A program made the position numbers and the translations under genes. From a virus (Duplodnaviria > Caudoviricetes): a stretch of DNA of 52,813 nt. Shown here piece after piece: positions 1,422 through 44,532 of the stretch; the stretch's first letter is position 1, and each line of letters opens with the position of its first letter. Below the pieces are notes generated by a model. The model had not been told where the DNA came from. It did not search any database and saw nothing but the letters and a program-made list of their open reading frames with translations. The stretch covers positions 1-52,813 of the IMG/VR virus record IMGVR_UViG_3300033513_000011; one strand, 5' to 3'.

Positions 1422-1434
1422 TCCACGGCGTGGA
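1422..1434 (-). repeat. palindrome TCCAC-N3-GTGGA copy 1
   Basis: Coding-strand CCTCCACGCCGTGGAGG, overlaps RBS of 1187..1414. Confidence 0.85.
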
Positions 1435-1468
1435 GGTGCCATTCTCCGGACTTCCCCGGACGAAACGG

Positions 1469-1786
1469 CTACTTCCACCATTTCTTGCCTTTCAGGCTTT
1501 CCTTGGACTCTGACGGCTTGCGCCAGACAGTCTCCCAGCCATCCATCCTCAATAGATTGAGTACGCGCCACTGGTCAGGCCATAACTCCACCTTGCAGTG
1601 GACTTCTACCCTGCCAGCATGCTCTGGATTATCAGCCCAGGCGTAGCCTGTGACTTCCCAGATATCCTCTCTTAGTTCTTGGATATCCCAGGCGCCGTAC
1701 ATAACTGCACCTGGATGAGCCAGCATGACAGCATGCAGGGCTTTGTTTTGCGCCTCACTCAGCTGCGGACGTTGCAGGATCGGCAT
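1469..1786 (-). CDS. hypothetical protein
   Basis: Likely start MPILQRPQ at 1786, directly after the stop of 1788..2177. Confidence 0.6.
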   Translation of the reverse strand: MPILQRPQLSEAQNKALHAVMLAHPGAVMYGAWDIQELREDIWEVTGYAWADNPEHAGRVEVHCKVELWPDQWRVLNLLRMDGWETVWRKPSESKESLKGKKWWK

Positions 1787-1787
1787 G

Positions 1788-2177
1788 CTAACTGCGCTTC
1801 TTTCGCAAGTCGTAGTAACAGCCCATATAGCTCGGGCGCGTCTCTGACTTGCTGTCGTACTTTTCAGGCGGCGGCGGGACTTGGATAAACTCGGTCCAGC
1901 AGCTGACTGCTTTATGAAAGCTACCACCGAAGTAACGATGCCCAGCTGGAGACACCTGTGAGATATAACGCAGCCAGGGCAGCTTGGGACGCATAGCATT
2001 CAACTCGGCTCTGGTCCCTATAGCTGCCCTGTCTGTGCGAATGACCATTTCAGGTGGGTCGTCATCATCCAGGCATAAGAACCAGATATTCAGGCCATTT
2101 TGATCCAAGCCTTTCCACACCGGTTCCTCATACCAGCAGCCATCACTACAGTAGCACCAAGTTGCAACTAGGCTCAT
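1788..2177 (-). CDS. hypothetical protein
   Basis: 129 aa ORF abutting neighbours. Confidence 0.6.
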   Translation of the reverse strand: MSLVATWCYCSDGCWYEEPVWKGLDQNGLNIWFLCLDDDDPPEMVIRTDRAAIGTRAELNAMRPKLPWLRYISQVSPAGHRYFGGSFHKAVSCWTEFIQVPPPPEKYDSKSETRPSYMGCYYDLRKKRS

Positions 2178-2178
2178 G

Positions 2179-2379
2179 CTAAGCCTCCCATATTCTAGGT
2201 TCCCAGGGCGTAGGATTCATCGTGGCCAGGAGTGTGCTAGTCATTGGCTTTTGCTCAACGCGGTACCATAAGCCATCTTCACGCTTCTCCCAAATGCCTC
2301 TTTCTGTAGTCACCCTGAAACCCACGGGCTGAGCCTCCAGGAGGTCCCTTATAGCTCTATAACTGTCATCTAGCACCAT
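2179..2379 (-). CDS. hypothetical protein
   Basis: 66 aa, AGGAG RBS, TAATG coupling with upstream ORF. Confidence 0.6.
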   Translation of the reverse strand: MVLDDSYRAIRDLLEAQPVGFRVTTERGIWEKREDGLWYRVEQKPMTSTLLATMNPTPWEPRIWEA

Positions 2380-2552
2380 TATCGTCTCCTGTTCTTGCGC
2401 CGGCTGGCTTTCTCCGCTTTGCGCTTTGCCTTAGCCTTCTTGTCCTCTTTTCCACGGTGTGGAGGTTCAGCCATATGCTTAGGCTGGCGAGCGCCACCTG
2501 TGCTGACAATCAGCTCTGCCAGCTGCTCAGGTGTGAGCAATGTAGCATTCAC
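2379..2552 (-). CDS. small basic protein (57 aa, not in ORF track)
   Basis: GTG start overlapping upstream stop (GTGA); MNATLLTPEQLAELI...KAKAKRKAEKASRRKNRRR; stop overlaps next start (TAATG). Confidence 0.55.
   Translation of the reverse strand: MNATLLTPEQLAELIVSTGGARQPKHMAEPPHRGKEDKKAKAKRKAEKASRRKNRRR
2451..2463 (-). repeat. palindrome TCCAC-N3-GTGGA copy 2
   Basis: Coding-strand CCTCCACACCGTGGAAA. Confidence 0.8.
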
Positions 2553-2812
2553 CGCCGCTTTATCCTCCAGCTTGCATAATACGCCACAATCTTGGCTGCC
2601 AGCTCAGAGGCAGTATCAGTGATAAGCGTGCCATCGATCCAGGTAGTGCGACGTGCAGTGTAATTGCCCCGCCCTGAGGGAAACTCGTACTTGACCAGCC
2701 TCCAGCGATTAAAGCCATTGGGCACAGAGGCGTCCTCATAAGCAGTGATTATCTCACTCAGGACAGTCATCTCGCCTAGATCCCAGTGACCAACAAACTC
2801 AAAGGGTTCCAT
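2549..2812 (-). CDS. hypothetical protein
   Basis: 87 aa ORF abutting neighbours. Confidence 0.6.
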   Translation of the reverse strand: MEPFEFVGHWDLGEMTVLSEIITAYEDASVPNGFNRWRLVKYEFPSGRGNYTARRTTWIDGTLITDTASELAAKIVAYYASWRIKRR

Positions 2813-3031
2813 TTACTTCTGCTTCTCAGACCAATCCACCAGGGCTTGCAGCTGCGCCAGCTTGAACTGGCTTAGCTCCCTAGTAATTACCCCTAGTGCA
2901 TAAAAGAGAGGTTTGCTCTGCTCAATAGGGGGAATACCCACAACCTTGCAAAACTGCTGGAAGTCTAGCTTGCTAGCCGCTCGTGTGAGAGCCAGCTTCA
3001 GCTTCCAGAACTCCTCGCTGTTCACTGACAT
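2813..3031 (-). CDS. hypothetical protein
   Basis: 72 aa, AAAGGAG RBS. Confidence 0.65.
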   Translation of the reverse strand: MSVNSEEFWKLKLALTRAASKLDFQQFCKVVGIPPIEQSKPLFYALGVITRELSQFKLAQLQALVDWSEKQK

Positions 3032-3176
3032 TCGTATCTCCTTTCACGCAAATTTGGCACTCGAAGACCAGCTCCAGCCCTACCCACAGGTAGCGCCCAT
3101 GCTTACGGCATACCAGCCTGTGACAGTTAGAGCAAAAGTCAGCCGGCGCCCCAGTGCACCCATCGATATCACACAT
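2973..3176 (-). CDS. small Cys/His-rich zinc-finger-like protein
   Basis: CDIDGC...CSNC...CRKH...CQIC; TAATG coupling to upstream gene. Confidence 0.55.
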   Translation of the reverse strand: MCDIDGCTGAPADFCSNCHRLVCRKHGRYLWVGLELVFECQICVKGDTNVSEQRGVLEAEAGSHTSG

Positions 3177-3502
3177 TAGTAGCTACCCTCTGGCACGTTC
3201 TCAAGATGTGCCTTGAAGACCGGCACCCTTACATAGCCGATCTCCACCCAGTAAAGCACCTGGTCGTCGATCACCCCTGCATCAGACAGCGCTTTGACAT
3301 AGTTCAACAGAGCGCCCTCGCTGTAGGTCTTGATAACGATCTCGTCAGGCGCTAAGTCCAGCTCAGGCACGTTGATGCTGAGCACCCCAGACGGGAAGCC
3401 CTCATCTGTCTTGGCGAACAGGGCAGGACGCATATTGGAATAGCGTCCCTTGAAGAGGTTGACAACCTCTCCGTTGATCAGTGTGATCTTCATCTCACTC
3501 AT
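3176..3502 (-). CDS. hypothetical protein, DUF4313-like
   Basis: EGFPSGVLSINVP...EIVIKTYSE...LSDAGVI...IGYVRVPVF resembles DUF4313 pattern (by eye). Confidence 0.55.
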   Translation of the reverse strand: MSEMKITLINGEVVNLFKGRYSNMRPALFAKTDEGFPSGVLSINVPELDLAPDEIVIKTYSEGALLNYVKALSDAGVIDDQVLYWVEIGYVRVPVFKAHLENVPEGSY

Positions 3503-3755
3503 CCTTGAATAGGCGGTGAATCAGCCACTGGGTACTTTGCTCGGTCTGGCTGATCTGAAATGCCCGATCGTCAACAAAGAAGATCTGATTCTGGATGCGT
3601 AGCGCGGCGCCCGGATAGTTTGCAACCACGAACTCGCGGATCACTATGTCCCTGATATCTCCAGGGTACACGGATCCAAACCATACCAGGACTGGCACAC
3701 GCTTGCCAACATGAGGAAACTCAACGGGAGTGATGCGTGCCATTTGCTTTGTCAT
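3495..3755 (-). CDS. hypothetical protein
   Basis: 86 aa, AAGGGAG RBS. Confidence 0.6.
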   Translation of the reverse strand: MTKQMARITPVEFPHVGKRVPVLVWFGSVYPGDIRDIVIREFVVANYPGAALRIQNQIFFVDDRAFQISQTEQSTQWLIHRLFKDE

Positions 3756-3789
3756 GGTCTCCCTTCACCTATTTGGTAGGTACCCATAT

Positions 3790-4407: not shown

Positions 4408-4410
4408 GGG

Positions 4411-4689
4411 TTATGAGAGGGCGGCATCCCCGAATGAGGCGTAGAACACCTCGAGCATCTCGGGTGTAGCCTCCACGGTGTGGAGGATATCTGGCACAAA
4501 CTGTTTCTCATTGGTGATGAGATCATGCTGCAAGCGATCAGCGGTGCAGCCAGGGCAAAGGACAGTGCCATTTGAGAGAATGAGGTGCGTGTCCTGTTCA
4601 TGGACAACCGCACCGCAGTAGCAGGCACCCACCACGGCGCCTGCGCTAAAGGGCTTGACAACGCGAGCTACACGCAGGGTGTTTAGCAT
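4411..4689 (-). CDS. hypothetical protein with CxC...CxxC
   Basis: Start MLNTLRV at 4689 after AAGGAGG. Confidence 0.6.
   Translation of the reverse strand: MLNTLRVARVVKPFSAGAVVGACYCGAVVHEQDTHLILSNGTVLCPGCTADRLQHDLITNEKQFVPDILHTVEATPEMLEVFYASFGDAALS
4472..4484 (-). repeat. palindrome TCCAC-N3-GTGGA copy 3
   Basis: Coding-strand CCTCCACACCGTGGAGG. Confidence 0.85.
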
Positions 4690-4766
4690 ATGGCCTCCTT
4701 TTGGGCTGTCCGGCACCAGCCGTTACCTAGGCGTCTGTAGTCACCTAGGCGCCAGTAGTGCCGCCT

Positions 4767-4797: not shown

Positions 4798-4820
4798 CGG
4801 CTGACTTACTTACTTCTGGA

Positions 4821-5648: not shown

Positions 5649-5671
5649 AGAGAGAGAATCTCCTTTCGAGA

Positions 5672-13840: not shown

Positions 13841-15490
13841 ATGGTCCTAAATGCCCTACGAGAACTGTTTGTAGGTGTGGAAAAATTCGACCTCCAGAAC
13901 CTGGAAGGCTTTCCCTACGAGAAGTACGAAGAACAGTGGATGCAGTACAGCGAAGCTGAGCGTTGGTTTAACGGCTCAGCCCTGGGTGACCAGCCCGAAG
14001 CCAGGAATAAGGCTGACCTCTATCCCCTGCGCATCAATCCCATTGTCGGCACTGTCCTCAAGCATACCTCTACCCTATTCGGTGAGGTAGAGGATGACGC
14101 CCGGCCCCTCGTGGTGCCCAAGGTCAAATATTCCTCGAAGAACCAGGGTGAGAAAGCCAAGGCGCTTCAGGCTGAGCGTGCCCTGAATGACCTGTGGGAT
14201 GAGAACCACGGGCGGGCGATCATGGTGGAAAATGGCCTTATGAGCCAGGTTTACGGCGGCTGCGTCTTCAAGCTAACCTACGTTCCCTGGGAGGGCATTG
14301 ACAAAGGCGGGCGCCGGCGCACTCCACTCCGTATCGAGCGCATCAACCCAAAGAACTTCATTGCTACCCCCGATGCCTCAGATGACTATAACCTACTGGA
14401 AGCCTGGATCGTACGCTCTATCAGCCTGGTTGAGGCTAAGCTCTGGGGATACACCGGCGATGATCCCAGCGTGTGGTACGTTGAGCATTGGATGCCAGAG
14501 ACCTACGAGGTCTTCATCGATGGAAAGCCAGCTCGGCGCCAGGGGTGGGAGCTGGGGGGCGAGAATATTTGGAAGTTTGTACCTGCAGTCTATATCCCCC
14601 ACATCCGCATCGGCGGCTTTCTCGGCTTCAACGCTTATTCCCACCTGGTTGGCATGGTCAAGGAGCTGAACCTGCGCTTTGGCGACCTGGGTGACTCAGT
14701 GAATGACGACAGCCACCCGATCATCGCCGTGCGCAACGCTGGCGGCGCCCTGCAGGTCAGGCGGGTCAACGAATGGCTGGAGTATGTCGACCTGGGCACC
14801 GACCCCGGCCTCAGCTCAGCTGAGCGCCCTCCGGATATGTTCGAGGTCAACCGTGCCAGGACTTCTTCCGCTATGACTGACCTGATCGATAAGATCGAGG
14901 GCCAGTACGACCGTGACAGCTTTGTGCCTCCTGTGGCTTACGGAGAAGACGAGGGAAGCCAGCGCTCCAGTCTGACCCTGGCTACTCGCTTCTGGCCGCT
15001 CACCTCCCATACAAGCATCGAGCGTTACTTCTGGACGCCAGCCCTGAACTTGCTATCTCAGTTTATGCTGCGCATGATGGCAATCAAAAGCCTGAATGAC
15101 ATAACCGAGGAGCACTCCAAGCTGCGTATCAAGCAGAAGTGGGCTAACCAGTTACCCAAGGATCGAGCTGAGGATATCAATGAATGGCAGATACGGGCTA
15201 CATCTAACTTGGCCTCCGTTGAGCATTTGATCGAGATGGCCGGCGACGTGGAGGACGTTGATGAAGAGCGGGATATGATCCTAAAGTGGGTCGCCGATCT
15301 CGAGGAAGCCAAACAGAAGGTTATCCAGAAGTATGCCCTGCAGCTCCAACAGGACCAGAACGAGGCCGCAGCTACCCAGCAGAAAGCCCAACTCGAAACG
15401 CAAGAGAAGGTCGCCAAGACCCAGGCTGACTCATTTGCGCAGCGCCCTCCTCCACAGCGTGGAGGAAAACCCGCCGGAGGTGCCCAATGA
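13841..15490 (+). CDS. portal protein (SPP1 gp6-like)
   Basis: 549 aa after terL; S..YGG..F motif, FVPAVYIPH, GSQRSSLTL, charged helical C-terminus. Confidence 0.85.
   Translation: MVLNALRELFVGVEKFDLQNLEGFPYEKYEEQWMQYSEAERWFNGSALGDQPEARNKADLYPLRINPIVGTVLKHTSTLFGEVEDDARPLVVPKVKYSSKNQGEKAKALQAERALNDLWDENHGRAIMVENGLMSQVYGGCVFKLTYVPWEGIDKGGRRRTPLRIERINPKNFIATPDASDDYNLLEAWIVRSISLVEAKLWGYTGDDPSVWYVEHWMPETYEVFIDGKPARRQGWELGGENIWKFVPAVYIPHIRIGGFLGFNAYSHLVGMVKELNLRFGDLGDSVNDDSHPIIAVRNAGGALQVRRVNEWLEYVDLGTDPGLSSAERPPDMFEVNRARTSSAMTDLIDKIEGQYDRDSFVPPVAYGEDEGSQRSSLTLATRFWPLTSHTSIERYFWTPALNLLSQFMLRMMAIKSLNDITEEHSKLRIKQKWANQLPKDRAEDINEWQIRATSNLASVEHLIEMAGDVEDVDEERDMILKWVADLEEAKQKVIQKYALQLQQDQNEAAATQQKAQLETQEKVAKTQADSFAQRPPPQRGGKPAGGAQ
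15451..15463 (+). repeat. palindrome TCCAC-N3-GTGGA copy 4
   Basis: TCCTCCACAGCGTGGAGGA near portal 3' end. Confidence 0.85.
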
Positions 15491-21935: not shown

Positions 21936-24855
21936 CCTCAGCTCTTCACGAACTGCCTACCTTACAGGCTTTGATACGGGTGTCTCAAAGAACTCCGCTT
22001 ACCTTGCGGGTACCAATGTTCGCACCACTAGAGTCTCTACCCAGGTAGAGTATCGATTCACTTACAATAAGCGTCGCACCAGTGCTATATATCTCCAGGT
22101 GGAGTACAGCCCGCTGACTGCCAGCCATGCGACTTCTGGCTACCTGTACGGCGTGGTTGGGGCTAATTCCAACCAGCCTGTTTATCTAGCTGGGCAGGCC
22201 GAGGCTCCAGGTCAACAAAGCGCTTATGCTGAAGGAACACTTCCGCAAGGGTCTTCCAGCACCCCTGTCTTTCTCACCGCACATGACTCATCGAGCTCCG
22301 GTTCTCCTGGCTACCTACAGGGTGTAAGCAGCCTTGCTGCAAGTCAGCTGGCTTATCTGTCTGGCTCTTCTGAGTTAGCTGTCTCCCTGCTTGCCTACCT
22401 CGAGGGTTTTGATGCAGGCGTCTCGGATAATCCTGCTTACCTGGCAGGCGAGGTTGCCGGACAGGCCAGCCTACCCGCATTCCTGTCTGCTGTAGCTACC
22501 CAGTCCGAAAAGCAGAGCAGCTTCCTGGCTGGTGCAACTGGACAGCCGGCTATTGCCTGGGCCGAGCTGGAGACTCCTGCTCCGATCTATTCAGCTTCCG
22601 GAAGTTTGCCCGCTTTTCTGGCAGGCTCAATAGACGGGAACGCAGCTCAGCCTGCTTATCTATTCGGCGTCGTTGCTAAGATCTCCAGCCTGCCAGTCTA
22701 CCTATCCGGTAACGATACTGCCAGTTCCAATCAGCCTGCCTACTGCCGTGGGGGCGAGGCCTCTAGTGCTAGTCTGCCAGCCTACCTAACTGCTAATATC
22801 CTGACAACTGGCGAGCAGCCTGCCTACCTGGAGGGCTATTCTGAAGGCGAGTTTTCCAGCTTGGCAGCTTACCTGCTTGGCTCATCGGATGGCAAGGCAT
22901 CTGTCCCAGCCTTCCTGCAGTCCGGCGTGGTCAAGGCTAGCCAGGGCGCCTTTTTGGCAGGTGGCACAGGCACATTCCCAATACAGGTAGGTGACGCCTG
23001 GTCTCAATACTATGGCTCAGCCCTGCTTACCAACAGTTTTGGGGTCAAGTATGCGGTCACTAAAGCTTCTTCCACCCATACTATCCTGATCTACAGAGAT
23101 ATCAATGGTGCTCCAAAGCTGGTAGCCTCTCAAAGCGCTGCGACTGTTGGCAACAACTCCCAGTGGATCGATGCCCGCATTGATGGCAACGATTGCATCC
23201 ACATCATCAGCCATGGCGGGACGCCAAGTGCAACTCTGGATATTGCCTACCGCGTCTTCGATACGCGCAACGACACCTGGATTGGATCCTGGGAGCAGGC
23301 TGCTACACTCTACGCCGAAATTTTTGATAACTGGTCCATCCGGATAGCCATCGACAGCAATAATAAACCGCATGTGGTCTATGTCGACCCAGTTACGGGC
23401 ACTTACCCCAACATCAAGTACATCGAGAAGACTGGAGCCAATTGGTCTAGTCCGGTCACGTTGAGCGAACACGCCTCGGACAGCTACCGGGTCTGGGGCA
23501 TTACCATGCTGGATGGTGATGACATCGATGTCTTCTGTTTCGATGACACGCTCAATGATGCCCTTTATATACAGAAGGTAGACGGCAACTGGGGATCCGA
23601 AACAGTCTGGGTAGGCTCCTTCATGGAACTCCTATCTGGTGTCTTTCAGGTCGTGGACGGCAACGGTAACATTTATCGCTACCATGCTGCAGACATTGGC
23701 ACCTATGCCTTGCTTTACGAGAACAATGTTAGTACAGGTGTCCAGGTTGCTGATCTTGATCCCTGGTTCTCGGCTTGCATTCTCTCCAGCATGCCAAGTA
23801 TACGCTGCATTGTCTATAGGAATGATAGTGGCGCGATCTGGCTGGCTACTTATGATGGAAGTTGGTCTTCCAGGATTATCAACTCTGCCACGGGAATAGG
23901 TGGCTGGACAGAGTGGGCGTACAACTTCGAGAATGAGCAAAGCCTCGTAGGCTACATCTATACTCTTGCCAGTAAGCTCTACTACGATGAAGTCACCCCA
24001 ATAGTCTATAGCAGCAAACATGCCTATACCGAAGGCTACCAGCCCAAGAGTAGTGTCCATGCTTATCTATCAGGCTGGGCGCACCCTACCTCCAGCGCGC
24101 ATGCTTACATGTTCTGTGGCACTGCAGATAAGTCAAGCACTTCTGCATTTACCAATGGCGCAGCTACCCAGAGCAGCCTGCATGCTTACCTGGAGGGTCT
24201 GGAGTATAGCTCACCACTCCCTGCTTATCTGTATGGTGGTATCGGCAGCGACACTCCAGCATGTCTTCAGGGCATTGTCGTACTTACAGGTGTAGAGTCA
24301 GCCTATACCTCTGGCTGGAGCCATGTCCTGGATAGTGGCCCGGCTTTCCTCTTTGGAAATATCGCACCCTCATCCGGCCAGGCGGCCTTCACTCAGGGGA
24401 TCTCCTCCACGCCGTGGAACTTCCATGCCTTTCTGCAAGGAATTGAAGCTAACCATCTGCCAGCCTACCTGGAAGGCATGGCTGTCCCGCGAGACTATGT
24501 GCGTGTTCGCAATGGAGAACAGGTTTTCCAGTTCAAGGTTCTATCTGAGGGCTTCTCTGACGGGGAGCTACTCCCATCTATTTCCCTGGCTCGCACTATC
24601 CCAGGTGGATTAGACATAAGCGCCGGCGGCAAGTACCGCCAATGGCGCCCCATGCTCCGCTTGGCCTACAACGATATTGCCAACCTGGAGGCCCTGTATG
24701 CATCCGGAGAGATCTGGACTTATGAGGATCACTTTGGCATGGAGCACAACGTCGTGCTTGTGGGAAGCTGGCAGAAGTCCCTTATTAGCACCACAGTCGA
24801 GGGAGGCAACTCCCTGTTCTTTGTCCGCGTCACTTTTGTGGAGGTGCTGACATGA
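21928..24855 (+). CDS. AYLxG-repeat virion protein 3 with beta-propeller-like insert and Dit-like C-terminus
   Basis: Start MPDLSSS; repeats flank a BNR-like segment (IDGNDCIHII, IDSNNKPHVVY); C-terminus paralogous to 44532..45233. Confidence 0.75.
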   Translation: MPDLSSSRTAYLTGFDTGVSKNSAYLAGTNVRTTRVSTQVEYRFTYNKRRTSAIYLQVEYSPLTASHATSGYLYGVVGANSNQPVYLAGQAEAPGQQSAYAEGTLPQGSSSTPVFLTAHDSSSSGSPGYLQGVSSLAASQLAYLSGSSELAVSLLAYLEGFDAGVSDNPAYLAGEVAGQASLPAFLSAVATQSEKQSSFLAGATGQPAIAWAELETPAPIYSASGSLPAFLAGSIDGNAAQPAYLFGVVAKISSLPVYLSGNDTASSNQPAYCRGGEASSASLPAYLTANILTTGEQPAYLEGYSEGEFSSLAAYLLGSSDGKASVPAFLQSGVVKASQGAFLAGGTGTFPIQVGDAWSQYYGSALLTNSFGVKYAVTKASSTHTILIYRDINGAPKLVASQSAATVGNNSQWIDARIDGNDCIHIISHGGTPSATLDIAYRVFDTRNDTWIGSWEQAATLYAEIFDNWSIRIAIDSNNKPHVVYVDPVTGTYPNIKYIEKTGANWSSPVTLSEHASDSYRVWGITMLDGDDIDVFCFDDTLNDALYIQKVDGNWGSETVWVGSFMELLSGVFQVVDGNGNIYRYHAADIGTYALLYENNVSTGVQVADLDPWFSACILSSMPSIRCIVYRNDSGAIWLATYDGSWSSRIINSATGIGGWTEWAYNFENEQSLVGYIYTLASKLYYDEVTPIVYSSKHAYTEGYQPKSSVHAYLSGWAHPTSSAHAYMFCGTADKSSTSAFTNGAATQSSLHAYLEGLEYSSPLPAYLYGGIGSDTPACLQGIVVLTGVESAYTSGWSHVLDSGPAFLFGNIAPSSGQAAFTQGISSTPWNFHAFLQGIEANHLPAYLEGMAVPRDYVRVRNGEQVFQFKVLSEGFSDGELLPSISLARTIPGGLDISAGGKYRQWRPMLRLAYNDIANLEALYASGEIWTYEDHFGMEHNVVLVGSWQKSLISTTVEGGNSLFFVRVTFVEVLT
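24406..24418 (+). repeat. palindrome TCCAC-N3-GTGGA copy 5
   Basis: CCTCCACGCCGTGGAAC. Confidence 0.8.
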
Positions 24856-33556: not shown

Positions 33557-33601
33557 AGGATCGGGAGGGAGAGCGCCTCCTACGTTTTCCCTCCTGATCC
33601 T
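33557..33601 (+). terminator. long hairpin after tail tube gene
   Basis: AGGATCGGGAGGGAGAGCG / CGTTTTCCCTCCTGATCCT 19-bp stem with GU pairs; no clear U tail. Confidence 0.5.
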
Positions 33602-33613
33602 CCACGCCGTGGA
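33601..33613 (+). repeat. palindrome TCCAC-N3-GTGGA copy 6
   Basis: TCCTCCACGCCGTGGAGGA overlapping RBS of 33621..33851. Confidence 0.85.
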
Positions 33614-33620
33614 GGATACT

Positions 33621-33851
33621 ATGGAAAATGCCAAGCTCACGCTACACCTGAGGCGCACCAAGCATGGAAGCCTTGTACCAGAGAAGATCACCATTGGGGA
33701 ACATTCCATCCCAGTCGTGGCCTGTCAGCTCAACTTTTCAGCAAAGGGCGAGGTGGACTACGCGGAGATCAGGATATCCATGTGGCAGTGCGACTTACAC
33801 ATTACGGAGGAAATGGAAAATGCCAGTCCAACTGATAGCGCCGATCTATGA
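33621..33851 (+). CDS. small hypothetical protein inserted between tail tube and chaperone
   Basis: Start MENAKL at 33621 after GGAGG. Confidence 0.55.
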   Translation: MENAKLTLHLRRTKHGSLVPEKITIGEHSIPVVACQLNFSAKGEVDYAEIRISMWQCDLHITEEMENASPTDSADL

Positions 33852-40500: not shown

Positions 40501-43500
40501 ATGCCCCCCGCTCCAGGTGAGGGCACCACAATCAACGTGGAAAGTGGCGAGCAGGTGGTCATCAACCCGGCTTCTAGCGGGGCGGGTGCTCCACCCCATG
40601 TCCCTCCGATCGCTGGTGCGTCTGCCGGCGGGATGAATGACTTTGCCAATCTTTTGGGCCAGAAGCTCACTGAAGCCCTACAGCAGACTGGCATCGGTAT
40701 CTACCACGCCGCTGGAGGTGGCACTTCGCCTGTCTTACAAGATCTACGTGCCGTTGAGGGCGTGCTCTCCATGCAAGGCATGAACACACCCCAGTTCCGC
40801 GCTTGGGGCGCCCAAATGCAGACTATGCTTGAAGGTATCTTGGGGCTACCCGCCGAGCAGCAAGGGCGCTACCAGGTCATGGAGCTGGCCCAAATGGCAA
40901 AGACCGGCGCGCCTGAGCAGCAAGCCGCTTTCCGTACCTTGATCCAGGCTAACCGGCCTACTATCCAATCTGGTTACAATGTTTTGCAAACGGTTGGCGC
41001 TTCCTACCGGGCAGCTTTGAAGGGCACACCTATGAGCGGGGAGACCATGGGCGCCCTGGCCTCGCTGATGGGTTTGACTGAACAAGAGGTTCGTGAGCAG
41101 ATCTCCGGAGGGCTGGCGCTCTCTCCAGAACTGGGCACCCTAGCCGGCAGCTTGCGCACCGCGCATGCCTTACAGACAACCGCCTCAGACTGGCGCACAA
41201 CTGCTAAGACACGTGGCTTCACCGAGGCCAATATCGGCGAGCATCTAGATGAGACTGGCAAGAAGATCAAGGGTTTGGGCGAGGTTGTCGTCGAGGCTAC
41301 CGAGAAGCTCTCCAGCCTCAACAAACAGTTTGCCTCAGCGACATCCGAGACTGAGCGCCTGGCTATCTCTCAAGAAGCTCAAGTTCAGAAAGGTGTCCTG
41401 GCCTCAGCTTTAGGACAGGAGCGCCTTGTCCAGGCCAGGGGAACTCTCAAATACCTGCAGGCAGCCCGGGTAGCTGGGGCAGAAGTAACTCCGGAAGCTT
41501 GGGGGCAAGCCTCTGCTGAAGTCCTGGCTGCAGAACAGCAAGTCGTTAGCGGGGAGCAGGCACAAGCTTACGGGCGCCAGCCCTGGCTGAGACGAGCTCT
41601 TGGACAGGGCCAAGCTGGACGTTTCATGCGCGGTTTGATCGGTGGCTGGGGCCTCATGTACATGGGACATCTGGCTTCTTTCCCCATGCAAACCTGGCAA
41701 TATGGCTACCAAGAGTCCGAGCAGTTCCAGATGCAGATGGCTGCTCAAGCAGGAGCTACTCTCGGACCATCTATCAGACCTTGGGCTTCACCAACCTACG
41801 CTGCTCTGCAAACCCAGATCGCCTATGGCGCGCCGATGGCAGGCGCAGCTCAGCTGGCTGGTGCCCGTATTCCTGGAGGTGCCAGGGATATCTTTGGAGC
41901 AGGTCTGGCAAGCTTATCTGCTGGCGCAATGGCCTTGTACTTTGGCTCTGTGGGTGCACAAGCGGGGCTAACTGGCTTGACTACTGCTATGAATACAGCT
42001 GCAGTACCAGCCATGGCACTAGGTCTGCTAGGCGGGCTATCCCTTACTCAGGCGGCTTACAACCAGTTCCCAGAACAGAACATTCTGGCTCTAGGTACAT
42101 CTCAGGTGCGCCAGCAAAGAGAGACCAATCCTCTAGTCCAAGGACTTCTGGGACTGGATGTCTGGTGGCGCTCGCTCAACCGGCCCGAGGCTACCCAGGC
42201 TGCCACACAGTACACTCAGGCTGTCAACCAGACTCTGACCTCAGGTGCCTTTAGTGCTCAACAGATCAGCCGTGGACCGCAAGGCTACTTCATAGCTCCA
42301 CAGCGTGGAGGCGCACCGACTGCTCAGCAGATGTACACCGTCGCTCAGCGCATCGCAGCCGACCCACGCTTCAGTGACCTAGACCCCAACCTGGTAGGAC
42401 AGGTAGCCTTGCAACTACTTCCTACTGGACAGGCAACCGAGAACAACATTCGGCAGATGGTTACCGCTTTAGCTGCAGGGACCAACGTCCCAGCTATAGC
42501 CCAGGCTGTCCAACAGTTCACGGGCGGAGGCTACCAGCCCCCTGCTGCGCTGGGTGCTCTGCAGGTACAGATCAGCGGCATGCAGCCCAGACAACTAGCT
42601 CGCCTGCAACGTGGGCTAGAACTGATGGGGCGCACGCCAGGTATCCAGCAATGGCTGGGTGGGGGTGCTCCAATAAGCGCGCAAGCTGTCCAGGGATTAG
42701 CTGAGGGCGCTTTCGCTGGTATTCAGGGCGGAGCTTATGAGGCACCTTTCTTACAACGGGCTGGCATCGCCGCAGAACGTTTTGGCTTAGGCTTGACCAC
42801 TCCTGTTAACTTGGGTCTTTATCAACGCCAGCGCACCTGGACACCTCAACAGTGGTACCTAGAAAGCCAACGCAACGCCTTGCTAAATAGAGGCGCTGCG
42901 CTCGGTGGGCAATTAGCCACTGCCGGCGTGCCTTACGAAACTATGCTTGGTGTTACTGGCTGGGCTGAGCTCAGCCCAGCCAACATGGGAATAGCAGAGA
43001 GAGTACGCTCCATGGACCGCTTTGCGGTCACCGGACTGGCCGCAGCAGGTGCAATCGGAAACCAGTATGCCACAATGGATATCGGGCTTGGCGGCAATCT
43101 CACCGGCTACCAGCTATTTGCCACCTCATTGCAACAAGGCACGCAGACACCCATCCAGACTGCTAACCAACTTCTACCTACTGGCTGGCAGAACCGGCCG
43201 GGCGCTCAAGCTATGGTCTATGGCATCAACGTCCAAACCGGACAGGTTTACCAGAATGCTGCTCAGCGACAGGCCGCTATCCAGGCAGGTGTACCAGCTA
43301 GCCAGATTGTCGGCGGGTTGCAGGGCGGGCAGTGGCAACAACAGTGGGCTGGCTGGAACTACCAGGCCGCTACTTCTGGTATCAATCTAGCGCAGATCGC
43401 CCTGCAGGAGAAGTACCAGCCTCTCTTCTGGAATATCGAGGACCGCCAGCGTGCCCTCCAGGATCGGCAGATGGCCTGGAGCTTCCAGATGCAGGGGCAG

Positions 43501-44532
43501 CAACTGGGGATGCAGCGCAGCCAGTTCTACGAAAACTTTGCCCTGAACATGCAGGGGACGCAGATGCAGCGCCAGTTCACGATGAGGGACTGGGCTTGGC
43601 AGAACCAGATGCGCCAGATGCAGTGGGGTTGGAGACAGGAGGACTTCGCCGAGAACGTGCGCTTCATGACCGGGCGCGAGCGCCGCCTGGCTGAGCGGCA
43701 GATGGAACGGGAAACCACCATGTTCGGCATGGAGGGCACCCGCATCGATGAGCAACGTCGCCAGCAGAAAGAGCTATGGGCGCTCGAGGATCAACGCTTC
43801 GAGCTTCAGCGCAAGCACTTCGAAGAGCAGTTCAAGCTATCTGAGGAGAACCTCAAGAAGCAGAAGGAGTTCTACGAAGAGCAGAAGAAGCTTAGAGATG
43901 AACAGACTAAGCTTCAGCGAGCTTACTGGAAGGAGCAGATCGAGCTACAGAAGCAGGCTGCCGGCGCAAGCGCTACCTACGCCGAGGCTATGAAGACCGC
44001 TGCCCTGGACATGGAACTGATTAGCAAGGGCCAGGGCGATGTACTGGCTGGATACCAGGTTGCAGCTGCTAGTGAGACCGAGATGATCAATACCCTCATC
44101 AAGGGTCTGAACCACATCATCAAGAATGCCCCGGATGCACTGGCTTCTATCGTGGATGCCCTTGCTGGAGGCGGGACGAAGCTGCTTCCAGAGTTTACTG
44201 GTGGTGGTAAGAAGGACAAAACCCCCAAAAGCGGTAATCCCCGCCAGATTGGCGGACCGCATATGCCTGGCGTGTCTGTCATAGGCGAGGGCGGACGCGA
44301 GCTCCTGGAAAGCAGCGTGCCCATGCACGTCTACCCAAACAACGAGCTGAAGTCCATGCTATATGGTAGCCAGAGCAACTACACATCCTACTGGAACAAC
44401 AGCTACGTAGATCTGGCACCTCCACAGCGTGGAGGACAAGGAGGACCGGCTGTCCTGATTGTCAATATCGGCAACGAACGCCTTGGGCGCTTCGTGATCG
44501 AGAAGTTTGACAAAGCCCTCGAGGTAGGCTGA
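34549..44532 (+). CDS. tape measure protein with N-terminal two-barrel RNA polymerase-like region (3,327 aa)
   Basis: TMP position; A/G/Q-rich helical C-half, aromatic-spaced coiled coil, C-terminal RQIGG...VIGEGGRELL motif; N-half motifs IKGGGSKVVL, TVREP, HGDWDAD, YQTYLDK. Confidence 0.85.
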   Translation: MADRGSPLAINTPVPGKGFNPYTKIDLASFEQLIQSNLKILLKDLGPVTVDTLKFSEFVRVSIRPQTGAASLRPPLVLDLAPGFKTPMGPAVEWYTRSGWSASFGPEGWIESPDQMRLHAPMEAFAKYIQASFNPNFIQKSPHLTEVDRFSRVVASGEDIVPHSQIPGGVMRLDPTIPHVSRAMMASEITFGLGEAATDPAQVERAIVNRAMLARTLLRAATPQEAALMNEEQFWAALPTYGYAFVKEGGRVRMRQAGIEIGPEQVQIVGADPNKAIKYINVAPGGGARSAADIIQIDPETGRPISMRPQPITGMAPGQRAGPKRILNVTYPGQEERPVAAVLPDVAFMAESLLSGSLVSYGDPFKGAVSAAYPKKLEPDLPQINAYQLEKAKWEWGRFQEIAGKPGEKVTYRRLDEKLPKAISPQESAIIGLLRYPELETNTEVIYPIRISAQDAPLYLTSGPEQAKLYVPPYFTPGVGDWRNMPEGKKTIETRLLAEGMGRGFQGQILPEAMSEIGMILPYHLETAAAIKGGGSKVVLSPALHPIGSPIREPVPGAPGRQLSGITGDVKVIEYSFIGHYGSLVPELQQQMLGLFDRINPDLAKELIRQNQEKAAELVEVYGQKTHGSPTSEEMAKVYAEKMGQPYLRKASAEQMFTHLRQLVEELPIEKSVGMFGWGNVPSQEYTLGSVPSSAKTMILRSLFRATRETFLKTHKIDIATQEGRRAFRQIVPGGWEAYRNEIISFEPETRGHLRGIEPEFRAAQHGPALIGTLVAPVVNEFLAGVGRVGPEEQRAMYVAWKEAAVSLGFDPESVLGASATGILPPAAEAWRNIAEVGRALGSYARIKPMPARAAKGEPARLSVTELTEQGRHKLEGFLATGVTDLTAIESFIQENLGQAGALYMPGAKIPYMVRPGWMEAVTHEAFSEGAQEPEPVQIMIKRYPELLQSWLSGYEPGTELRGEALLSEYQGWMESTFKSSSRTISKVLTQRYGGIMGRFAGLMLPVGESLMPEQQLETMLMERARASGVRPFAKSKEGVPWIAQAKEFIAQTGFLHGLTVREPAFQPMGGAQSGRIISERILKDRGLYLPPSTVVRPGGEIQPGSWMTTGWASLEGLPIIAMHGDWDADMIYKAGVAMLSQTGLTPLAGALRPPTGDTPIERRRLIQQVDQALRASTGGTPWEPGGSFNVLQKSLTRILQSVMSGKHGREAPPSAEGVTGIGISTVPWEELVKTSGEVIRTEQGMGTTYRMRQLFEAFATARGWSPEAITRGGTAQAYLYQTYLDKLTKEIEERRGFRNIETILSSAFFGEGRGGEFSLLYKPSAVRRHVPLWTAEAHKGVSDEERGRAFSGRVGSSLAIQLAEDIAGMETPDYGLAAFLTATKFEDIPQLEERMKKEGIVRALTGSGEGLMETKGYLYGRDITETLLGGTTVFSAFARDIGFPAVATRKGARMSKEEPGVPVMQRIGRQPIPWMGKVVPLRELGLQPDVSMAAGLFSYYTRRWGTTTPEFTKRFAPWPAEAMGSYMALKERLVSEGKPVPFMLDYMISQESVSALLRGVGGVEPATMPRLTSAEAARFVPGKMTVGSTTVPFLAMPGKLGIMGQSLYTEELAYAKQKELELVASQATFGIEPEKLRPASEAAFQKKMFEAGYAFEEQQRGELFKRERMFLYDEQGRPIVGPLYGIPHEKQGIVPAAEIAGETYTESPFFKTYGRFAPDVLGLVFEKGKENVASVLQASMKWSLTPLAAEQKPASLFVRMQEAQYFYPLQARAFKGSAASGPLRELLEPQIRETPWFKEFWSFEGQKAFAESQKLPVPSEEMMRAQQEQIIRRNIKLWSSGLRQSTLGIVPYRFEAFSGWGEPGAYQVAGGPEGVEIPGVREPLLRRYIAKGFMRGQQLMAPENIAEAMPQIAAAAFEAGTPFTELGPAFLGLQGATGQWKEWVSRYNVALRPTTIPGAKPTGMVKAQLGYQGGEHEPRPGENMPPAPGEGTTINVESGEQVVINPASSGAGAPPHVPPIAGASAGGMNDFANLLGQKLTEALQQTGIGIYHAAGGGTSPVLQDLRAVEGVLSMQGMNTPQFRAWGAQMQTMLEGILGLPAEQQGRYQVMELAQMAKTGAPEQQAAFRTLIQANRPTIQSGYNVLQTVGASYRAALKGTPMSGETMGALASLMGLTEQEVREQISGGLALSPELGTLAGSLRTAHALQTTASDWRTTAKTRGFTEANIGEHLDETGKKIKGLGEVVVEATEKLSSLNKQFASATSETERLAISQEAQVQKGVLASALGQERLVQARGTLKYLQAARVAGAEVTPEAWGQASAEVLAAEQQVVSGEQAQAYGRQPWLRRALGQGQAGRFMRGLIGGWGLMYMGHLASFPMQTWQYGYQESEQFQMQMAAQAGATLGPSIRPWASPTYAALQTQIAYGAPMAGAAQLAGARIPGGARDIFGAGLASLSAGAMALYFGSVGAQAGLTGLTTAMNTAAVPAMALGLLGGLSLTQAAYNQFPEQNILALGTSQVRQQRETNPLVQGLLGLDVWWRSLNRPEATQAATQYTQAVNQTLTSGAFSAQQISRGPQGYFIAPQRGGAPTAQQMYTVAQRIAADPRFSDLDPNLVGQVALQLLPTGQATENNIRQMVTALAAGTNVPAIAQAVQQFTGGGYQPPAALGALQVQISGMQPRQLARLQRGLELMGRTPGIQQWLGGGAPISAQAVQGLAEGAFAGIQGGAYEAPFLQRAGIAAERFGLGLTTPVNLGLYQRQRTWTPQQWYLESQRNALLNRGAALGGQLATAGVPYETMLGVTGWAELSPANMGIAERVRSMDRFAVTGLAAAGAIGNQYATMDIGLGGNLTGYQLFATSLQQGTQTPIQTANQLLPTGWQNRPGAQAMVYGINVQTGQVYQNAAQRQAAIQAGVPASQIVGGLQGGQWQQQWAGWNYQAATSGINLAQIALQEKYQPLFWNIEDRQRALQDRQMAWSFQMQGQQLGMQRSQFYENFALNMQGTQMQRQFTMRDWAWQNQMRQMQWGWRQEDFAENVRFMTGRERRLAERQMERETTMFGMEGTRIDEQRRQQKELWALEDQRFELQRKHFEEQFKLSEENLKKQKEFYEEQKKLRDEQTKLQRAYWKEQIELQKQAAGASATYAEAMKTAALDMELISKGQGDVLAGYQVAAASETEMINTLIKGLNHIIKNAPDALASIVDALAGGGTKLLPEFTGGGKKDKTPKSGNPRQIGGPHMPGVSVIGEGGRELLESSVPMHVYPNNELKSMLYGSQSNYTSYWNNSYVDLAPPQRGGQGGPAVLIVNIGNERLGRFVIEKFDKALEVG
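42297..42309 (+). repeat. palindrome TCCAC-N3-GTGGA copy 7
   Basis: CTCCACAGCGTGGAGG. Confidence 0.8.
44421..44433 (+). repeat. palindrome TCCAC-N3-GTGGA copy 8
   Basis: CCTCCACAGCGTGGAGG near TMP 3' end. Confidence 0.85.

What the first reader, a model, noticed from the sequence alone, without database searches (positions are those of the whole stretch)
1422..44433. Eight copies of a transcription-oriented palindrome TCCAC-RSC-GTGGA
Exact TCCAC-N3-GTGGA occurs at 1422, 2451, 4472, 15451, 24406, 33601, 42297 and 44421, often extended to CCTCCAC-N3-GTGGAGG. Ten fixed bases would be expected well under once in 53 kb. Read on the coding strand, the spacer is always R-S-C (GCC, ACC, AGC), on both the leftward and rightward arms. 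Copies fall in different reading frames (PPHRG, LHTVE, STPW, PQRG), so the signal is nucleic-acid level. Several lie near gene ends or on RBSs. Inference: an operator/stoperator system as in mycobacteriophage L5, a binding site for a packaging or partition protein, or stem-plus-3-nt-loop hairpins like N4 virion-RNAP promoters, which would pair with the TMP-RNAP.
Basis: partly seen in the sequence, partly recalled or inferred. Interest (0 to 1): 0.75.

Follow-up and report, generated by a model that had tools for sequence, protein, structure and literature searches.

The report
Lineage-specific dispersed palindromes in a phage
A 15-17-base mirror-symmetric DNA word is written eight times across this uncultured phage genome, and related phages each carry a word of their own, most likely as docking sites for a two-fold-symmetric DNA-binding protein whose job is still unknown.

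Summary
TCCAC-N3-GTGGA occurs 8 times where 0.10 is expected. Six copies lie in ORFs, against a mean of 0.24 in synonymous-codon shuffles.

It is not peculiar to this phage. In this uncultured family, known only from portal homologues, 14 of 45 non-redundant relatives' loci carry their own dispersed palindrome; Markov controls give 0 of 45. Complete genomes hold 10-31 copies, evenly spaced in two of them. Many of these words have no spacer or a 1-2 nt one, such as CGGAACGTTCCG and TTGGGAATTCCCAA. Arms never vary within a genome, flanks are unconserved, and half-sites alone are not enriched.

The end of the portal gene holds a palindrome in 9 of 17 relatives, with at least four different sequences.

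My best reading (0.45) is a duplex site for a symmetric, lineage-specific DNA-binding protein acting genome-wide. No reader protein was identified. The R-S-C spacer rule holds 8 of 8 here but fails in relatives. N4-type hairpin promoters and L5-type stoperators each fail defining features. The closest precedent is the 17-bp 7-3-7 repeat of Cluster O mycobacteriophages, whose function is unknown.

The parts
1420..1436 (.). Site 1, CCTCCAC-GGC-GTGGAGG on the + strand (spacer GCC on the local coding strand, which is minus). Intergenic, between the stop of ORF 1469-1999 and ATG 1414. The arm GGAGG lies 7 nt before that ATG.
2449..2465 (.). Site 2, core TCCAC-GGT-GTGGA (coding-strand spacer ACC). 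It has 2 mismatches to the 17-mer and lies inside the small minus-strand ORF 2379-2552 (reads PPHRG).
4470..4486 (.). Site 3, exact 17-mer (coding-strand spacer ACC), inside minus-strand ORF 4411-4716 (reads LHTVE).
15449..15465 (.). Site 4, exact 17-mer with spacer AGC, in the last 42 nt of the portal gene (13841-15490). It lies 21 nt before the ATG (15487) of the next gene and reads PPQRGG. Relatives hold a palindrome at the same position.
24404..24420 (.). Site 5, core TCCAC-GCC-GTGGA, with 2 mismatches to the 17-mer. It lies inside the 975-aa ORF (21928-24855) and reads STPW.
33599..33615 (.). Site 6, exact 17-mer with spacer GCC. Intergenic, between the tail-tube-like gene (32465-33547) and the chaperone-like gene (33664-34278). 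GGAGG lies 7 nt before ATG 33621, which opens a 76-codon ORF overlapping the conserved gene out of frame. G001 has a site of its own motif at the same junction.
42295..42311 (.). Site 7, GCTCCAC-AGC-GTGGAGG (1 mismatch), inside the giant ORF at about residue 2583 (reads PQRGG).
44419..44435 (.). Site 8, exact 17-mer with spacer AGC, inside the giant ORF 99 nt before its stop (44532). It reads PPQRGG.
33599..33625 (+). A 27-nt stretch, CCTCCACGCCGTGGAGGATACTATGGA, that is identical in inverted orientation at 1410-1436 (minus strand). It comprises the palindrome, 5 further nt (ATACT) and ATGGA.
   Evidence: read directly

Best explanation
The eight sites are copies of one dyad-symmetric DNA word. 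Its core is CTCCAC-N3-GTGGAG, mostly extended to CCTCCAC-N3-GTGGAGG. Selection keeps it at the DNA level wherever the genome tolerates it: in intergenic gaps, on ribosome-binding sites, in the loosely constrained 3' ends of genes, and by codon choice inside long ORFs.

I read it as the duplex-DNA site of a sequence-specific, two-fold-symmetric (dimeric) DNA-binding protein. Its specificity changes between related phages. It would be encoded in the fast-changing accessory genome or by the host.

The protein would act genome-wide rather than gene by gene, as a global repressor or roadblock, or as a loading or organising site with a reach of a few kb. The nearest working analogies are KorB O_B sites, stoperators, and the unexplained Cluster O repeats.

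Shown here: the enrichment, the DNA-level selection, the symmetry, the family-wide occurrence, the switching of sequence at a retained position, and the even spacing in two genomes. No reader protein was identified.
For: 1. Enrichment and codon-level selection: 8 sites against 0.10 expected, and 6 coding sites against 0.24 in synonymous shuffles.

2. The trait runs in the family. Fourteen of 45 non-redundant relatives' loci of at least 15 kb have 4 or more dispersed copies of a palindrome of their own. Markov controls give 0 of 45 and unrelated viral loci of at least 10 kb give 0 of 44. Whole genomes hold: G001 17 exact copies, 27 with one-mismatch variants; G002 10; G004 31; G005 23; G006 24.

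3. The symmetry runs through the centre. Examples are CGGAACGTTCCG (28 of 30 with central CG), TTGGGAATTCCCAA (19 of 24), CCTCCAAGCTTGGAGG and GTTCGCA-N-TGCGAAC. Among sites with TCCAC arms, spacer positions 1 and 3 are complementary in 12 of 25 (p=0.011). A 3-nt loop has no need of this.

4. Arms are invariant within a genome and spacing is fixed in 5 of 6 genomes. Nothing is conserved outside the palindrome. Isolated half-sites are not enriched.

5. Sites inside conserved portal blocks are ungapped substitutions, not insertions.

6. The last 90 nt or so of the portal gene hold a palindrome with arms of at least 6 bp in 9 of 17 distinct relatives, against 13.4% of control windows (p=1.2e-4). 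At least four different sequences occupy that position.

7. Every giant ORF of 8-12 kb holds 1-2 sites. Spacing is more even than random in G005 and G006 (P=0.0002 each), with largest gaps of about 8 kb.

8. The motif does not follow the structural genes. G002 shares the arms of the window at 38% portal identity, while its nearest relatives, at 60-77%, carry CTCAGAC-NN-GTCTGAG.
Against: No DNA-binding protein was found. Pfam gave no DNA-binding domain in 30 small window ORFs. No ParB_N was found in the window or in the complete G001. The window and G002 share only structural proteins, even at phmmer E<=5.

G002 uses two spacings, TA at 4 sites and N3 at 6, with identical 7-bp arms. That suits a stem-loop better than a rigid dimer.

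The spacers of the window are oriented with transcription 8 of 8 (p=0.008), and composition does not explain this. The central base in G001 is A or C on the coding strand in 14 of 17 sites (p=0.013).

Sites are enriched just upstream of starts: 35 of 112 against 12.6%; 32 of 109 are intergenic; 16 of 76 coding sites lie within 60 nt of a gene's 3' end. This could mean a transcript-level role rather than cheap placement.

Most sites are not near any recognisable promoter. The authors of the Cluster O study doubted a transcriptional role for the same reason.
Confidence: 0.45

Rival explanations
1. The sites are DNA hairpins or cruciforms read on one strand. They would serve as promoters or loading sites for the virion RNA-polymerase-like domain of the giant tape-measure-like protein, in the manner of N4, or for another protein that binds single-stranded DNA.
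For: The window's sites have 5-9-bp stems with 3-nt loops (RNA fold of 37-nt stretches around each site -5.7 to -16.5 kcal/mol). G002 tolerates loops of two lengths on identical arms. The spacers are oriented 8 of 8 in the window.

The giant ORF carries GDxDxD in 7 of 7 family members, with D377, D379 and D381 invariant in 16 homologues. In the model, residues 249-405 match the double-psi beta-barrel of the largest RNAP subunits at Z 4.5-6.2, and 49 of the top 50 Foldseek rows are beta' chains at E 0.02-0.3.

N4 virion RNAP uses extruded hairpin promoters (PMC13434306, passages).
Against: Five of 8 sites lie in the structural arm and two lie inside the polymerase-like gene itself. No directional sequence is conserved next to the palindrome. 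Sister lineages use perfect palindromes that leave only 4-5-bp stems, with mean fold energies of -5.6 to -7.0 kcal/mol, and their 'loop' bases are conserved and self-complementary. P23-45, the one studied phage with a tape-fused RNAP, uses AT-rich motifs at pre-early genes (PMC10770324, passages). Early transcripts of phi14:2 gp66 share no upstream motif (bioRxiv 10.1101/2020.03.07.982082, passages). The fold evidence for the polymerase is weak: pLDDT 64 and all Z below 8.
Confidence: 0.17
2. The sites work as RNA stem-loops in the long transcripts. They would mask the Shine-Dalgarno sequence, since the left arm CCUCC pairs with GGAGG, or they would mark points of mRNA processing, stabilisation or protein binding.
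For: At 1422 and 33601 the right arm is the only Shine-Dalgarno sequence, 7 nt before an ATG. The same holds at L209's portal-end site, and 4 of 5 L122 sites lie 6-24 nt before a start. Sites are enriched within 40 nt upstream of starts (35 of 112) and in the 3' ends of upstream genes (16 of 76). The spacers are oriented with transcription in the window.
Against: Six of 8 sites lie inside ORFs, in three reading frames, up to 2.2 kb from a gene end. The motifs of most sister lineages contain no Shine-Dalgarno sequence. Stems never covary within a genome. Of G001's 10 one-mismatch variants, by my reading of gene orientation, 7 give a C-A mismatch and only 3 a G-U wobble in the sense RNA. There is no Rfam match and no U-run follows the stem.
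Confidence: 0.13
3. The sites are DNA marks for a process other than gene regulation. Candidates are cutting or nicking by a phage nuclease with a restriction-endonuclease fold, recombination or module exchange, replication or packaging, or 'self' tags that stop a processive nuclease.
For: Spacing is even and each long ORF carries at least one site, which fits a process with limited reach.

A 128-146-aa protein (phrog_18407; some relatives are DUF5843) is detected in 5 of 93 non-redundant family sequences. All 5 carry TCCAC-N2 or TCCAC-N3-GTGGA sites, and Fisher's test for N2 gives p=5.8e-5. Its model matches restriction endonucleases, a homing endonuclease and Hjc resolvases, with Z of 4.3-7.3 for the top 14 rows. 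The Cluster O authors saw deletions between their repeats (PMC4351075, section 8).
Against: The protein was not detected in the window. The 5 carriers are only about 3 independent lineages. The family has 286 homologues, and 12 distant members in unrelated viral contigs (10 distinct, by their identical E-values) have no such sites, so it may be a general resolvase. In G002's copy the three conserved acidic and lysine positions seen in the alignment (E22, D/N53, K55) are replaced. The model has pLDDT 60. The laid contigs listed no places where molecules begin or end, and contigs cannot show such ends. A phage rich in targets of its own nuclease needs a further explanation.
Confidence: 0.15
4. 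The sites are a chance or compositional effect, a protein-level repeat, or a copied host repeat.
For: Three sites encode the same PQRG(G) peptide in low-complexity protein regions.
Against: There are 8 sites against 0.10 expected and 6 against 0.24 in codon shuffles. Three reading frames and two intergenic copies are used. The site is kept at the portal end in relatives at 93% and 58% portal identity, and at a GC content of 0.41 against 0.55 in the window.
Confidence: 0.02

Closest known systems
17-bp repeat of Cluster O mycobacteriophages (TGTTCGG-N3-CCGAACA), PMC4351075 (section 8 read in full)
   Same: The architecture is the same: 7-bp inverted arms that never vary, a variable 3-bp spacer, and many copies spread through the genome. 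In Corndog there are 34 copies, of which 14 lie between ORFs and the rest inside or at the edges of ORFs. Few are near promoters. The authors also proposed sites for a dimeric protein, and the function is unknown.
   Different: The arm sequence differs and the phage and host are unrelated; cultured phages give no match. In the present family each lineage has a different word and spacer length. The word switches at a retained position, spacing is even in two genomes, and the motif does not follow the structural genes. Copy number in the window is lower, at 8 in 52.8 kb.
Operators and stoperators of mycobacteriophage L5 and Cluster A (PMC9283540, passages)
   Same: More than twenty copies of a 13-mer are spread across the genome, and specificity differs between related phages.
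   Different: L5 sites are asymmetric, are bound by a monomer, lie in promoters and short intergenic spaces, and work in one orientation only. The sites here are dyad-symmetric and 6 of 8 lie inside ORFs. No repressor or integrase was found in the window.
Hairpin early promoters of coliphage N4 virion RNA polymerase (PMC13434306, passages; the figure of a 5-7-bp stem with a 3-nt loop is recalled)
   Same: Both have a short stem with a 3-nt loop, in a phage that carries a giant virion protein with a polymerase-like domain.
   Different: The N4 promoters lie ahead of early genes (gp1, gp2, gp15 and gp16 are named in the passages; that they number three is recalled), and the enzyme is T7-like. 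Here the sites run through the whole genome, lack directional flanks, and in sister lineages have no loop. The polymerase-like domain here resembles beta'.
KorB O_B operators of plasmid RK2 (PMC11790492, passages; the count of 12 sites is recalled)
   Same: O_B is a 13-bp 6-1-6 palindrome (TTTAGCGGCTAAA) spread over a replicon, partly far from promoters. KorB acts at a distance of up to 1.5 kb by sliding. This is like G001's GTTCGCA-N-TGCGAAC and would account for a limit on spacing.
   Different: No ParB_N domain was found in six-frame searches of the window or of the complete G001. No partition genes were seen.
Start-associated sequences of Cluster K mycobacteriophages (PMC3203893, search listing only; details recalled)
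   Same: A repeated motif that includes the ribosome-binding site a few nt before start codons, as at 1422 and 33601.
   Different: Those sequences are asymmetric and tied to starts. Only 2 of the 8 sites here sit on a ribosome-binding site.

Membership tests
Cluster O-type dispersed dyad repeat | Invariant inverted arms of about 7 bp around a variable 3-bp spacer | tested here: met
   The 10 core bases are exact in 8 of 8 sites and the 14-base form in 5 of 8. Three different spacers occur.
Cluster O-type dispersed dyad repeat | Many copies through the genome, both between and inside ORFs | tested here: met
   Two sites are intergenic and 6 lie in ORFs over 43 kb. Relatives have 10-31 copies per genome.
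Cluster O-type dispersed dyad repeat | Same sequence, or a related phage | tested here: not met
   The arms differ. Cultured phages give no match by megablast of 24 kb or by tblastn of the portal.
L5-type stoperator | Asymmetric 13-mer bound by a monomer | tested here: not met
   The site is dyad-symmetric over 14 of 17 positions.
L5-type stoperator | Orientation tied to the direction of transcription | tested here: inconclusive
   The spacers are oriented 8 of 8 in the window (p=0.008). The rule fails in G002 (0 of 6), L206 and L217.
L5-type stoperator | Sites in promoters or short intergenic spaces | tested here: not met
   Six of 8 sites lie inside ORFs.
L5-type stoperator | Immunity repressor and a temperate life style | tested here: inconclusive
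   Pfam gave no DNA-binding domain in 30 small ORFs. All 9 hits in bacterial genome collections lie on MAG contigs of at most 85.6 kb. The window is only 72% complete.
N4-type hairpin promoter | Stem of 5-7 bp with a 3-nt loop | tested here: met
   Predicted stems are 5-9 bp with 3-nt loops. The definition is recalled.
N4-type hairpin promoter | Located ahead of early genes only | tested here: not met
   Five of 8 sites lie in the structural arm, including two inside the giant ORF.
N4-type hairpin promoter | Directional sequence determinants next to the hairpin | tested here: not met
   No flank is conserved in transcription-oriented alignments of 6 genomes.
N4-type hairpin promoter | T7-like single-subunit virion RNA polymerase | tested here: inconclusive
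   The giant ORF has no Pfam or PHROG hit. Its model resembles the beta' double-psi barrel at Z 4.5-6.2, not a T7-like enzyme, but only 751 of 3327 residues were modelled.
KorB/ParB O_B-type site | ParB-family (ParB_N) reader protein | tested here: not met
   There were 0 matches at E<=1 in the window and in the complete G001, while the control genomes gave hits in 11 of 14.
Intrinsic terminator | G+C-rich stem followed by a U-run | tested here: not met
   No T-run follows any of the 8 sites. The scan shows no excess of terminator-like sites.
Described RNA family (Rfam 15) | Match at the gathering score | tested here: not met
   There were 0 matches in the whole window.

The most novel reading that the evidence does not exclude
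The palindromes are a lineage-specific spacing code for the ejected, tape-measure-fused virion RNA polymerase. In this reading they are small cruciform promoters or re-loading sites, kept at least once every 8 kb or so, even inside 10-kb ORFs. A polymerase anchored at the tail exit could then start again and again and reel the whole genome into the cell. Promoter specificity would switch between lineages along with the fast-evolving N-terminal part of the giant protein.
Probability: 0.06. Interest if true: 0.9.

Novelty: new variant of a known kind. Interest (0 to 1): 0.62.

Why it matters
Dispersed dyad repeats have been noted in a few cultured phages, with Cluster O the clearest case, and remain unexplained. 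This case shows the phenomenon as a trait of a large uncultured family whose genomes run to about 80-90 kb. Each lineage writes its own 11-17-bp palindrome 10-31 times per genome by codon choice. It keeps a site at certain gene junctions while the sequence of the site changes, and in some genomes it spaces the sites evenly. That pattern points to a cis element with a limited range, read by a factor whose specificity turns over quickly.

If the sites turn out to be tied to the polymerase-like giant protein, they would bear on how such phages start infection.

Tried and rejected
Relatives and scans
The few loci with several copies (L022, L050, L085) are unrelated repeat arrays.
- A protein-pattern search with the portal alone found nothing. 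An alignment was needed.
- Earlier findings of this scan: none on record.

Ideas tested and dropped
- Chi-like half-site: isolated half-sites occur at about the expected number.
- Mobile mini-insertion: sites in conserved portal blocks are ungapped.
- Protein-level repeat: the sites use three reading frames, and the codon shuffles argue against it.
- Small terminase subunit as reader: no site lies in or near 11287-11628, and nothing else supports the idea.
- ParB/KorB reader: no ParB_N domain.
- Host factor: this could not be tested. The 9 relatives binned in MAGs (5 of 9 Chloroflexota) showed no dispersed palindrome in the 7 loci examined.

Searches without result
- Sigma-70-like promoters and terminators are not in excess, and no promoter-like hit is tied to a site. 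One weak terminator-like hairpin (1428-1411, minus strand) overlaps site 1.
- Rfam: 0 matches. tRNAs: 0.
- Sequencing runs: no RNA holder is listed. All 9 runs are DNA kept as contigs. Laying 4 of them showed a strain variant in X2 but listed no places where molecules begin or end, and the table of differences was cut, so nothing can be said about conservation at the sites.
- Giant protein: the PDB sequence search gave nothing, the protein atlas gave scores of 0.77 with no lead, and the word-based homologue search gave one relative.
- Profile comparison of the restriction-fold family with window ORFs 9722-10123 and 9375-9719 gave no similarity.

Literature
- Two literature searches for dispersed palindromes in phages gave only the Cluster O paper as a close precedent.
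- Gleghorn 2008 on the N4 promoter hairpin is not held.
- Supplementary files of P23-45, phi14:2 and Cluster O were not seen. They may list motif positions that bear on the comparison.

Full report
**The observation**

The window is a whole viral record of 52,813 bp, linear, and estimated 72% complete. TCCAC-N3-GTGGA occurs at the eight stated places. That is 8 against 0.10 expected, and none of 100 dinucleotide shuffles reaches 8. One mismatch adds only three sites, 11 against 1.75 expected, so the copies are sharp rather than a fuzzy family.

The 17-mer CCTCCAC-N3-GTGGAGG is exact in 5 of 8 sites. Genes run leftward up to about 8.3 kb and rightward from there.

Two sites, 1422 and 33601, are intergenic. 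Their right arm GGAGG lies 7 nt before an ATG, and the two share 27 identical bases. The other six lie in ORFs, in three reading frames.

Synonymous-codon shuffles that keep every protein give a mean of 0.24 coding sites and a maximum of 3 in 300 runs, against 6 observed. The signal is therefore written at the DNA level.

**The orientation claim**

On the coding strand all eight spacers read R-S-C. The orientation test gives p=0.008. Coding-strand composition does not explain it: RSC 4605 against GSY 4520.

The rule was found after looking at the data and does not travel. At the portal end, L206 (93% portal identity) has AGG and L217 has CGG. G002, with the same arms, has ATT, AAT, AAA, CAT and AAG. 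G001 shows a bias of its own: the central base is A or C on the coding strand in 14 of 17 sites (p=0.013). G005 shows none, with CACG 4 against CGTG 4. I keep this as a real but unexplained feature of this genome, not as a defining property.

**What the phage is**

The gene content is as follows:
- large terminase subunit (11674-13335), portal (13841-15490) and major head protein (29864-31246);
- a tail-tube-like protein (32465-33547);
- two small ORFs in the usual chaperone position;
- a 3327-aa ORF (34549-44532) whose C-terminal part is similar to those of the giant proteins of relatives; I read it as tape-measure-like from its composition;
- a 1379-aa tail protein.

Cultured phages give no match. 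Portal homologues are many (316), and their complete genomes are 82-90 kb. Outside the structural module the window shares no detectable protein with five such genomes.

All 9 hits in bacterial genome collections lie on MAG contigs of at most 85.6 kb. Five of the 9 were binned with Chloroflexota, which is a weak hint at the host.

**The family trait**

Relatives carry their own dispersed palindromes:

| Sequence | Palindrome | Copies |
|---|---|---|
| L122 | CCTCCAAGCTTGGAGG | 5 |
| L187 | AGAACCGGTTCT | 9 |
| L198 | TTCGAY-NN-RTCGAA | 9 |
| L199 | GGGAAWTTCCC | 12 |
| L173, L158 | TCCAASTTGGA | 6 |
| L219 | TTTGCAC-N3-GTGCAAA | 5 |
| L212, L214 | TTACACC-N-GGTGTAA | 2 in L214 |

Whole genomes:

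| Genome | Palindrome | Copies |
|---|---|---|
| G001 | GTTCGCA-N-TGCGAAC | 17 exact, 27 with one recurrent one-base variant |
| G002 | GCTCCAC-(TA or N3)-GTGGAGC | 4 + 6 |
| G004 | CGGAACGTTCCG | 30-31 |
| G005 | TTCGGC-NN-GCCGAA | 23 |
| G006 | TTGGGAATTCCCAA | 24 |

Of 45 non-redundant relatives' loci of at least 15 kb, 14 have 4 or more dispersed copies. Markov controls give 0 of 45. Unrelated viral loci of at least 10 kb give 0 of 44; these are shorter, with a mean of 12.5 kb. The other 31 relatives show no such word in the stretch at hand.

The window's own motif recurs in L206, L209 (3 sites), L215, L217, L220, L225 and G002.

**Anatomy of the element**

- Nothing outside the palindrome is conserved when sites are aligned in the direction of transcription.
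- Arms do not vary within a genome.
- Spacing is fixed in 5 of 6 genomes.
- Isolated half-sites occur at about the expected number.
- In many lineages the symmetry runs through the centre. Among TCCAC-arm sites, spacer positions 1 and 3 are complementary in 12 of 25 (p=0.011).
- Sites inside conserved portal blocks align without gaps, so they arose by substitution, not insertion.
- Predicted RNA stems are strong in the window and in G002 (means of -9.8 and -10.2 kcal/mol). They are weaker in G001 and G004-G006 (-5.6 to -7.0).

**Where the sites lie**

In six genomes 32 of 109 sites are intergenic, against about 7% non-coding sequence. My gene calls are home-made and generous. Of 76 coding sites, 16 lie within 60 nt of a gene's 3' end, where 10% is expected, and 6 lie near a 5' end. 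Thirty-five of 112 sites lie within 40 nt upstream of a start preceded by a Shine-Dalgarno sequence, against 12.6% of random positions. About half are deep inside ORFs.

Each giant ORF of 8-12 kb holds one or two sites. Spacing is more even than random in G005 (CV 0.45) and G006 (CV 0.52), P=0.0002 each. It is marginally so in G004 (P=0.09) and in G001 with variants included (P=0.036). It is not so in the window or in G002.

The end of the portal gene, just before the next gene's ATG, holds a palindrome with arms of at least 6 bp in 9 of 17 distinct relatives, against 13.4% of control windows (p=1.2e-4). At least four sequences occupy that position.

The junction after the tail-tube gene holds a site in the window and, with another sequence, in G001.

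**The motif does not follow the structural genes**

G002 shares the window's arms at 38% portal identity. Its nearest relatives, at 60-77% identity, carry CTCAGAC-NN-GTCTGAG.

**Reading**

I favour a duplex site read by a symmetric dimer, for these reasons:
- the dyad symmetry runs through the centre;
- arms are invariant and spacing is fixed;
- directional flanks are absent;
- the sites are indifferent to reading frame;
- the word switches at retained positions.

Even spacing, and a site in every long ORF, point to a cis function with a reach of a few kb.

The enrichment in gaps, on ribosome-binding sites and in loose 3' ends can be read in two ways. It may be placement where it costs least: the portal tail is unalignable. 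Or it may be a function tied to gene starts. I cannot separate the two.

The weak points are three:
- no reader protein was found;
- G002 uses two spacings;
- the window's spacers are oriented with transcription.

A 128-146-aa protein (phrog_18407) is detected in 5 of 93 non-redundant family sequences. All five carry TCCAC-N2 or TCCAC-N3-GTGGA sites. Of the 88 sequences without it, 3 have an N2 site and 5 an N3 site (Fisher p=5.8e-5 for N2).

Its model (pLDDT 60) matches restriction endonucleases, a homing endonuclease and Hjc resolvases. The top 14 rows score Z 4.3-7.3. The alignment shows a pattern of E, D, (D/N)xK and D, which I recall as the signature of that nuclease fold. G002's copy has lost three of these positions (E22, D/N53, K55).

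Several points count against the lead:
- the five carriers are about three independent lineages;
- the window lacks the protein;
- the family is large, with 286 homologues, some of them DUF5843;
- 12 distant members in other viral contigs (10 distinct, by their identical E-values) show no such sites.

It is a candidate, not a finding.

**The polymerase link**

All 7 giant proteins examined have one GDxDxD at residues 835-1153. In 16 homologues the three aspartates are invariant.

A model of residues 750-1500 (pLDDT 64) places them in a double-psi beta-barrel. It matches the largest subunits of bacterial, archaeal, eukaryotic, poxvirus and jumbo-phage RNA polymerases at Z 4.5-6.2. Forty-nine of the top 50 Foldseek rows are beta' chains at E 0.02-0.3.

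This supports a tape-fused polymerase like that of P23-45 (PMC10770324). All scores are below the level at which a fold match is safe. Nothing ties the palindromes to this protein. P23-45 uses AT-rich promoters at pre-early genes, and early transcripts of phi14:2 share no motif (passages read).

**Comparison with known systems**

The closest precedent is the Cluster O mycobacteriophage repeat. It is a 7-3-7 palindrome with invariant arms, 34 copies, both in and between ORFs, of unknown function. Its authors suggested sites for a dimeric protein and doubted a transcriptional role (PMC4351075, section 8).

L5 stoperators, N4 hairpin promoters and KorB O_B sites each fail at least one defining feature (see the membership test).

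I file the finding as a new variant of a known but unexplained kind. The family-wide switching of the word, the retained positions and the even spacing are the new elements.

Noticed in passing
window 34549-44532 (+); GDWDAD at 37921-37938: A 3327-aa ORF. A beta'-like double-psi barrel with an invariant DxDxD lies near residue 1125. The C-terminal part is similar to those of the giant proteins of relatives, and I read it as tape-measure-like from its composition. It is probably a tape-fused virion RNA polymerase, as in Thermus phage P23-45, but in an unrelated uncultured family. The support is weak: pLDDT 64 and Z 4.5-6.2.
   Followed up: partly
window 1410-1436 (-) and 33599-33625 (+): A 27-nt identical stretch made of the palindrome, ATACT and ATGGA, once on each arm of the genome. 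ATG 33621 opens a 76-codon ORF that overlaps, out of frame, the conserved chaperone-like gene starting at 33664. Which start is used is unknown.
   Followed up: partly
L298:17627-18067 (-) (G002); L215:274-657; L121:790-1173; L226:6834-7217: A small protein (phrog_18407; some relatives are DUF5843) with a predicted restriction-endonuclease or Hjc-like fold. Within the portal family it co-occurs with TCCAC-type palindromes. In G002's copy the three conserved acidic and lysine positions seen in the alignment (E22, D/N53, K55) are replaced.
   Followed up: partly
window 16724-18190 (+): A 488-aa protein in the head module with a C-terminal class I SAM-methyltransferase domain (Methyltransf_11/25, E=2.7e-7). 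It is conserved at 51-78% in relatives.
   Followed up: no
window 15889-16482 (+): A 197-aa protein of unknown family that is more conserved (77-89% identity) than the portal next to it (53-93%) across the same relatives.
   Followed up: no
window 1-11628: None of the 21 leftward ORFs called in the left arm has a homologue in five complete relatives, and nearly none in about 170 relatives' loci. Of these 21 ORFs, 18 were scanned with Pfam and none hit at its curated cutoff; among the 12 rightward small ORFs also scanned, only DUF551 (8820-9158) did.
   Followed up: partly
window 13891-13907 and 5980-5996: Two palindromes related to the motif by paired changes, CCTCCAG-AAC-CTGGAAG and CATCCAG-GTT-GTGGATG. 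They may be decayed or alternative sites. At 3 mismatches, 9 extra matches occur against 3.5 expected in all.
   Followed up: no
window 28622-28643 (+): The one clean terminator-like hairpin with a T-run (GAAGCGCGC-ATAT-CCGCGCTTT, then TTTGCATT), between the 638-aa gene and the next gene.
   Followed up: no
G001 (L201-L205), positions 440-76799: Ten extra sites differ from the G001 consensus by the same single inner base (GTTCGCA-N-TACGAAC or its complement). They fill the 26-kb stretch that lacks exact sites.
   Followed up: partly
L050:3568-3640; L022:25-95 and 5439-5490: Unrelated viral contigs hold tandem arrays of hairpins built on the same TCCAC-N3-GTGGA core, with 9-24 nt between units.
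   Followed up: no
window 14001-34000, run X2: A sediment metagenome holds a strain variant about 96-97% identical, in short contigs, with two places where a contig skips 434-453 bp (18587-19041 and 21959-22394).
   Followed up: no
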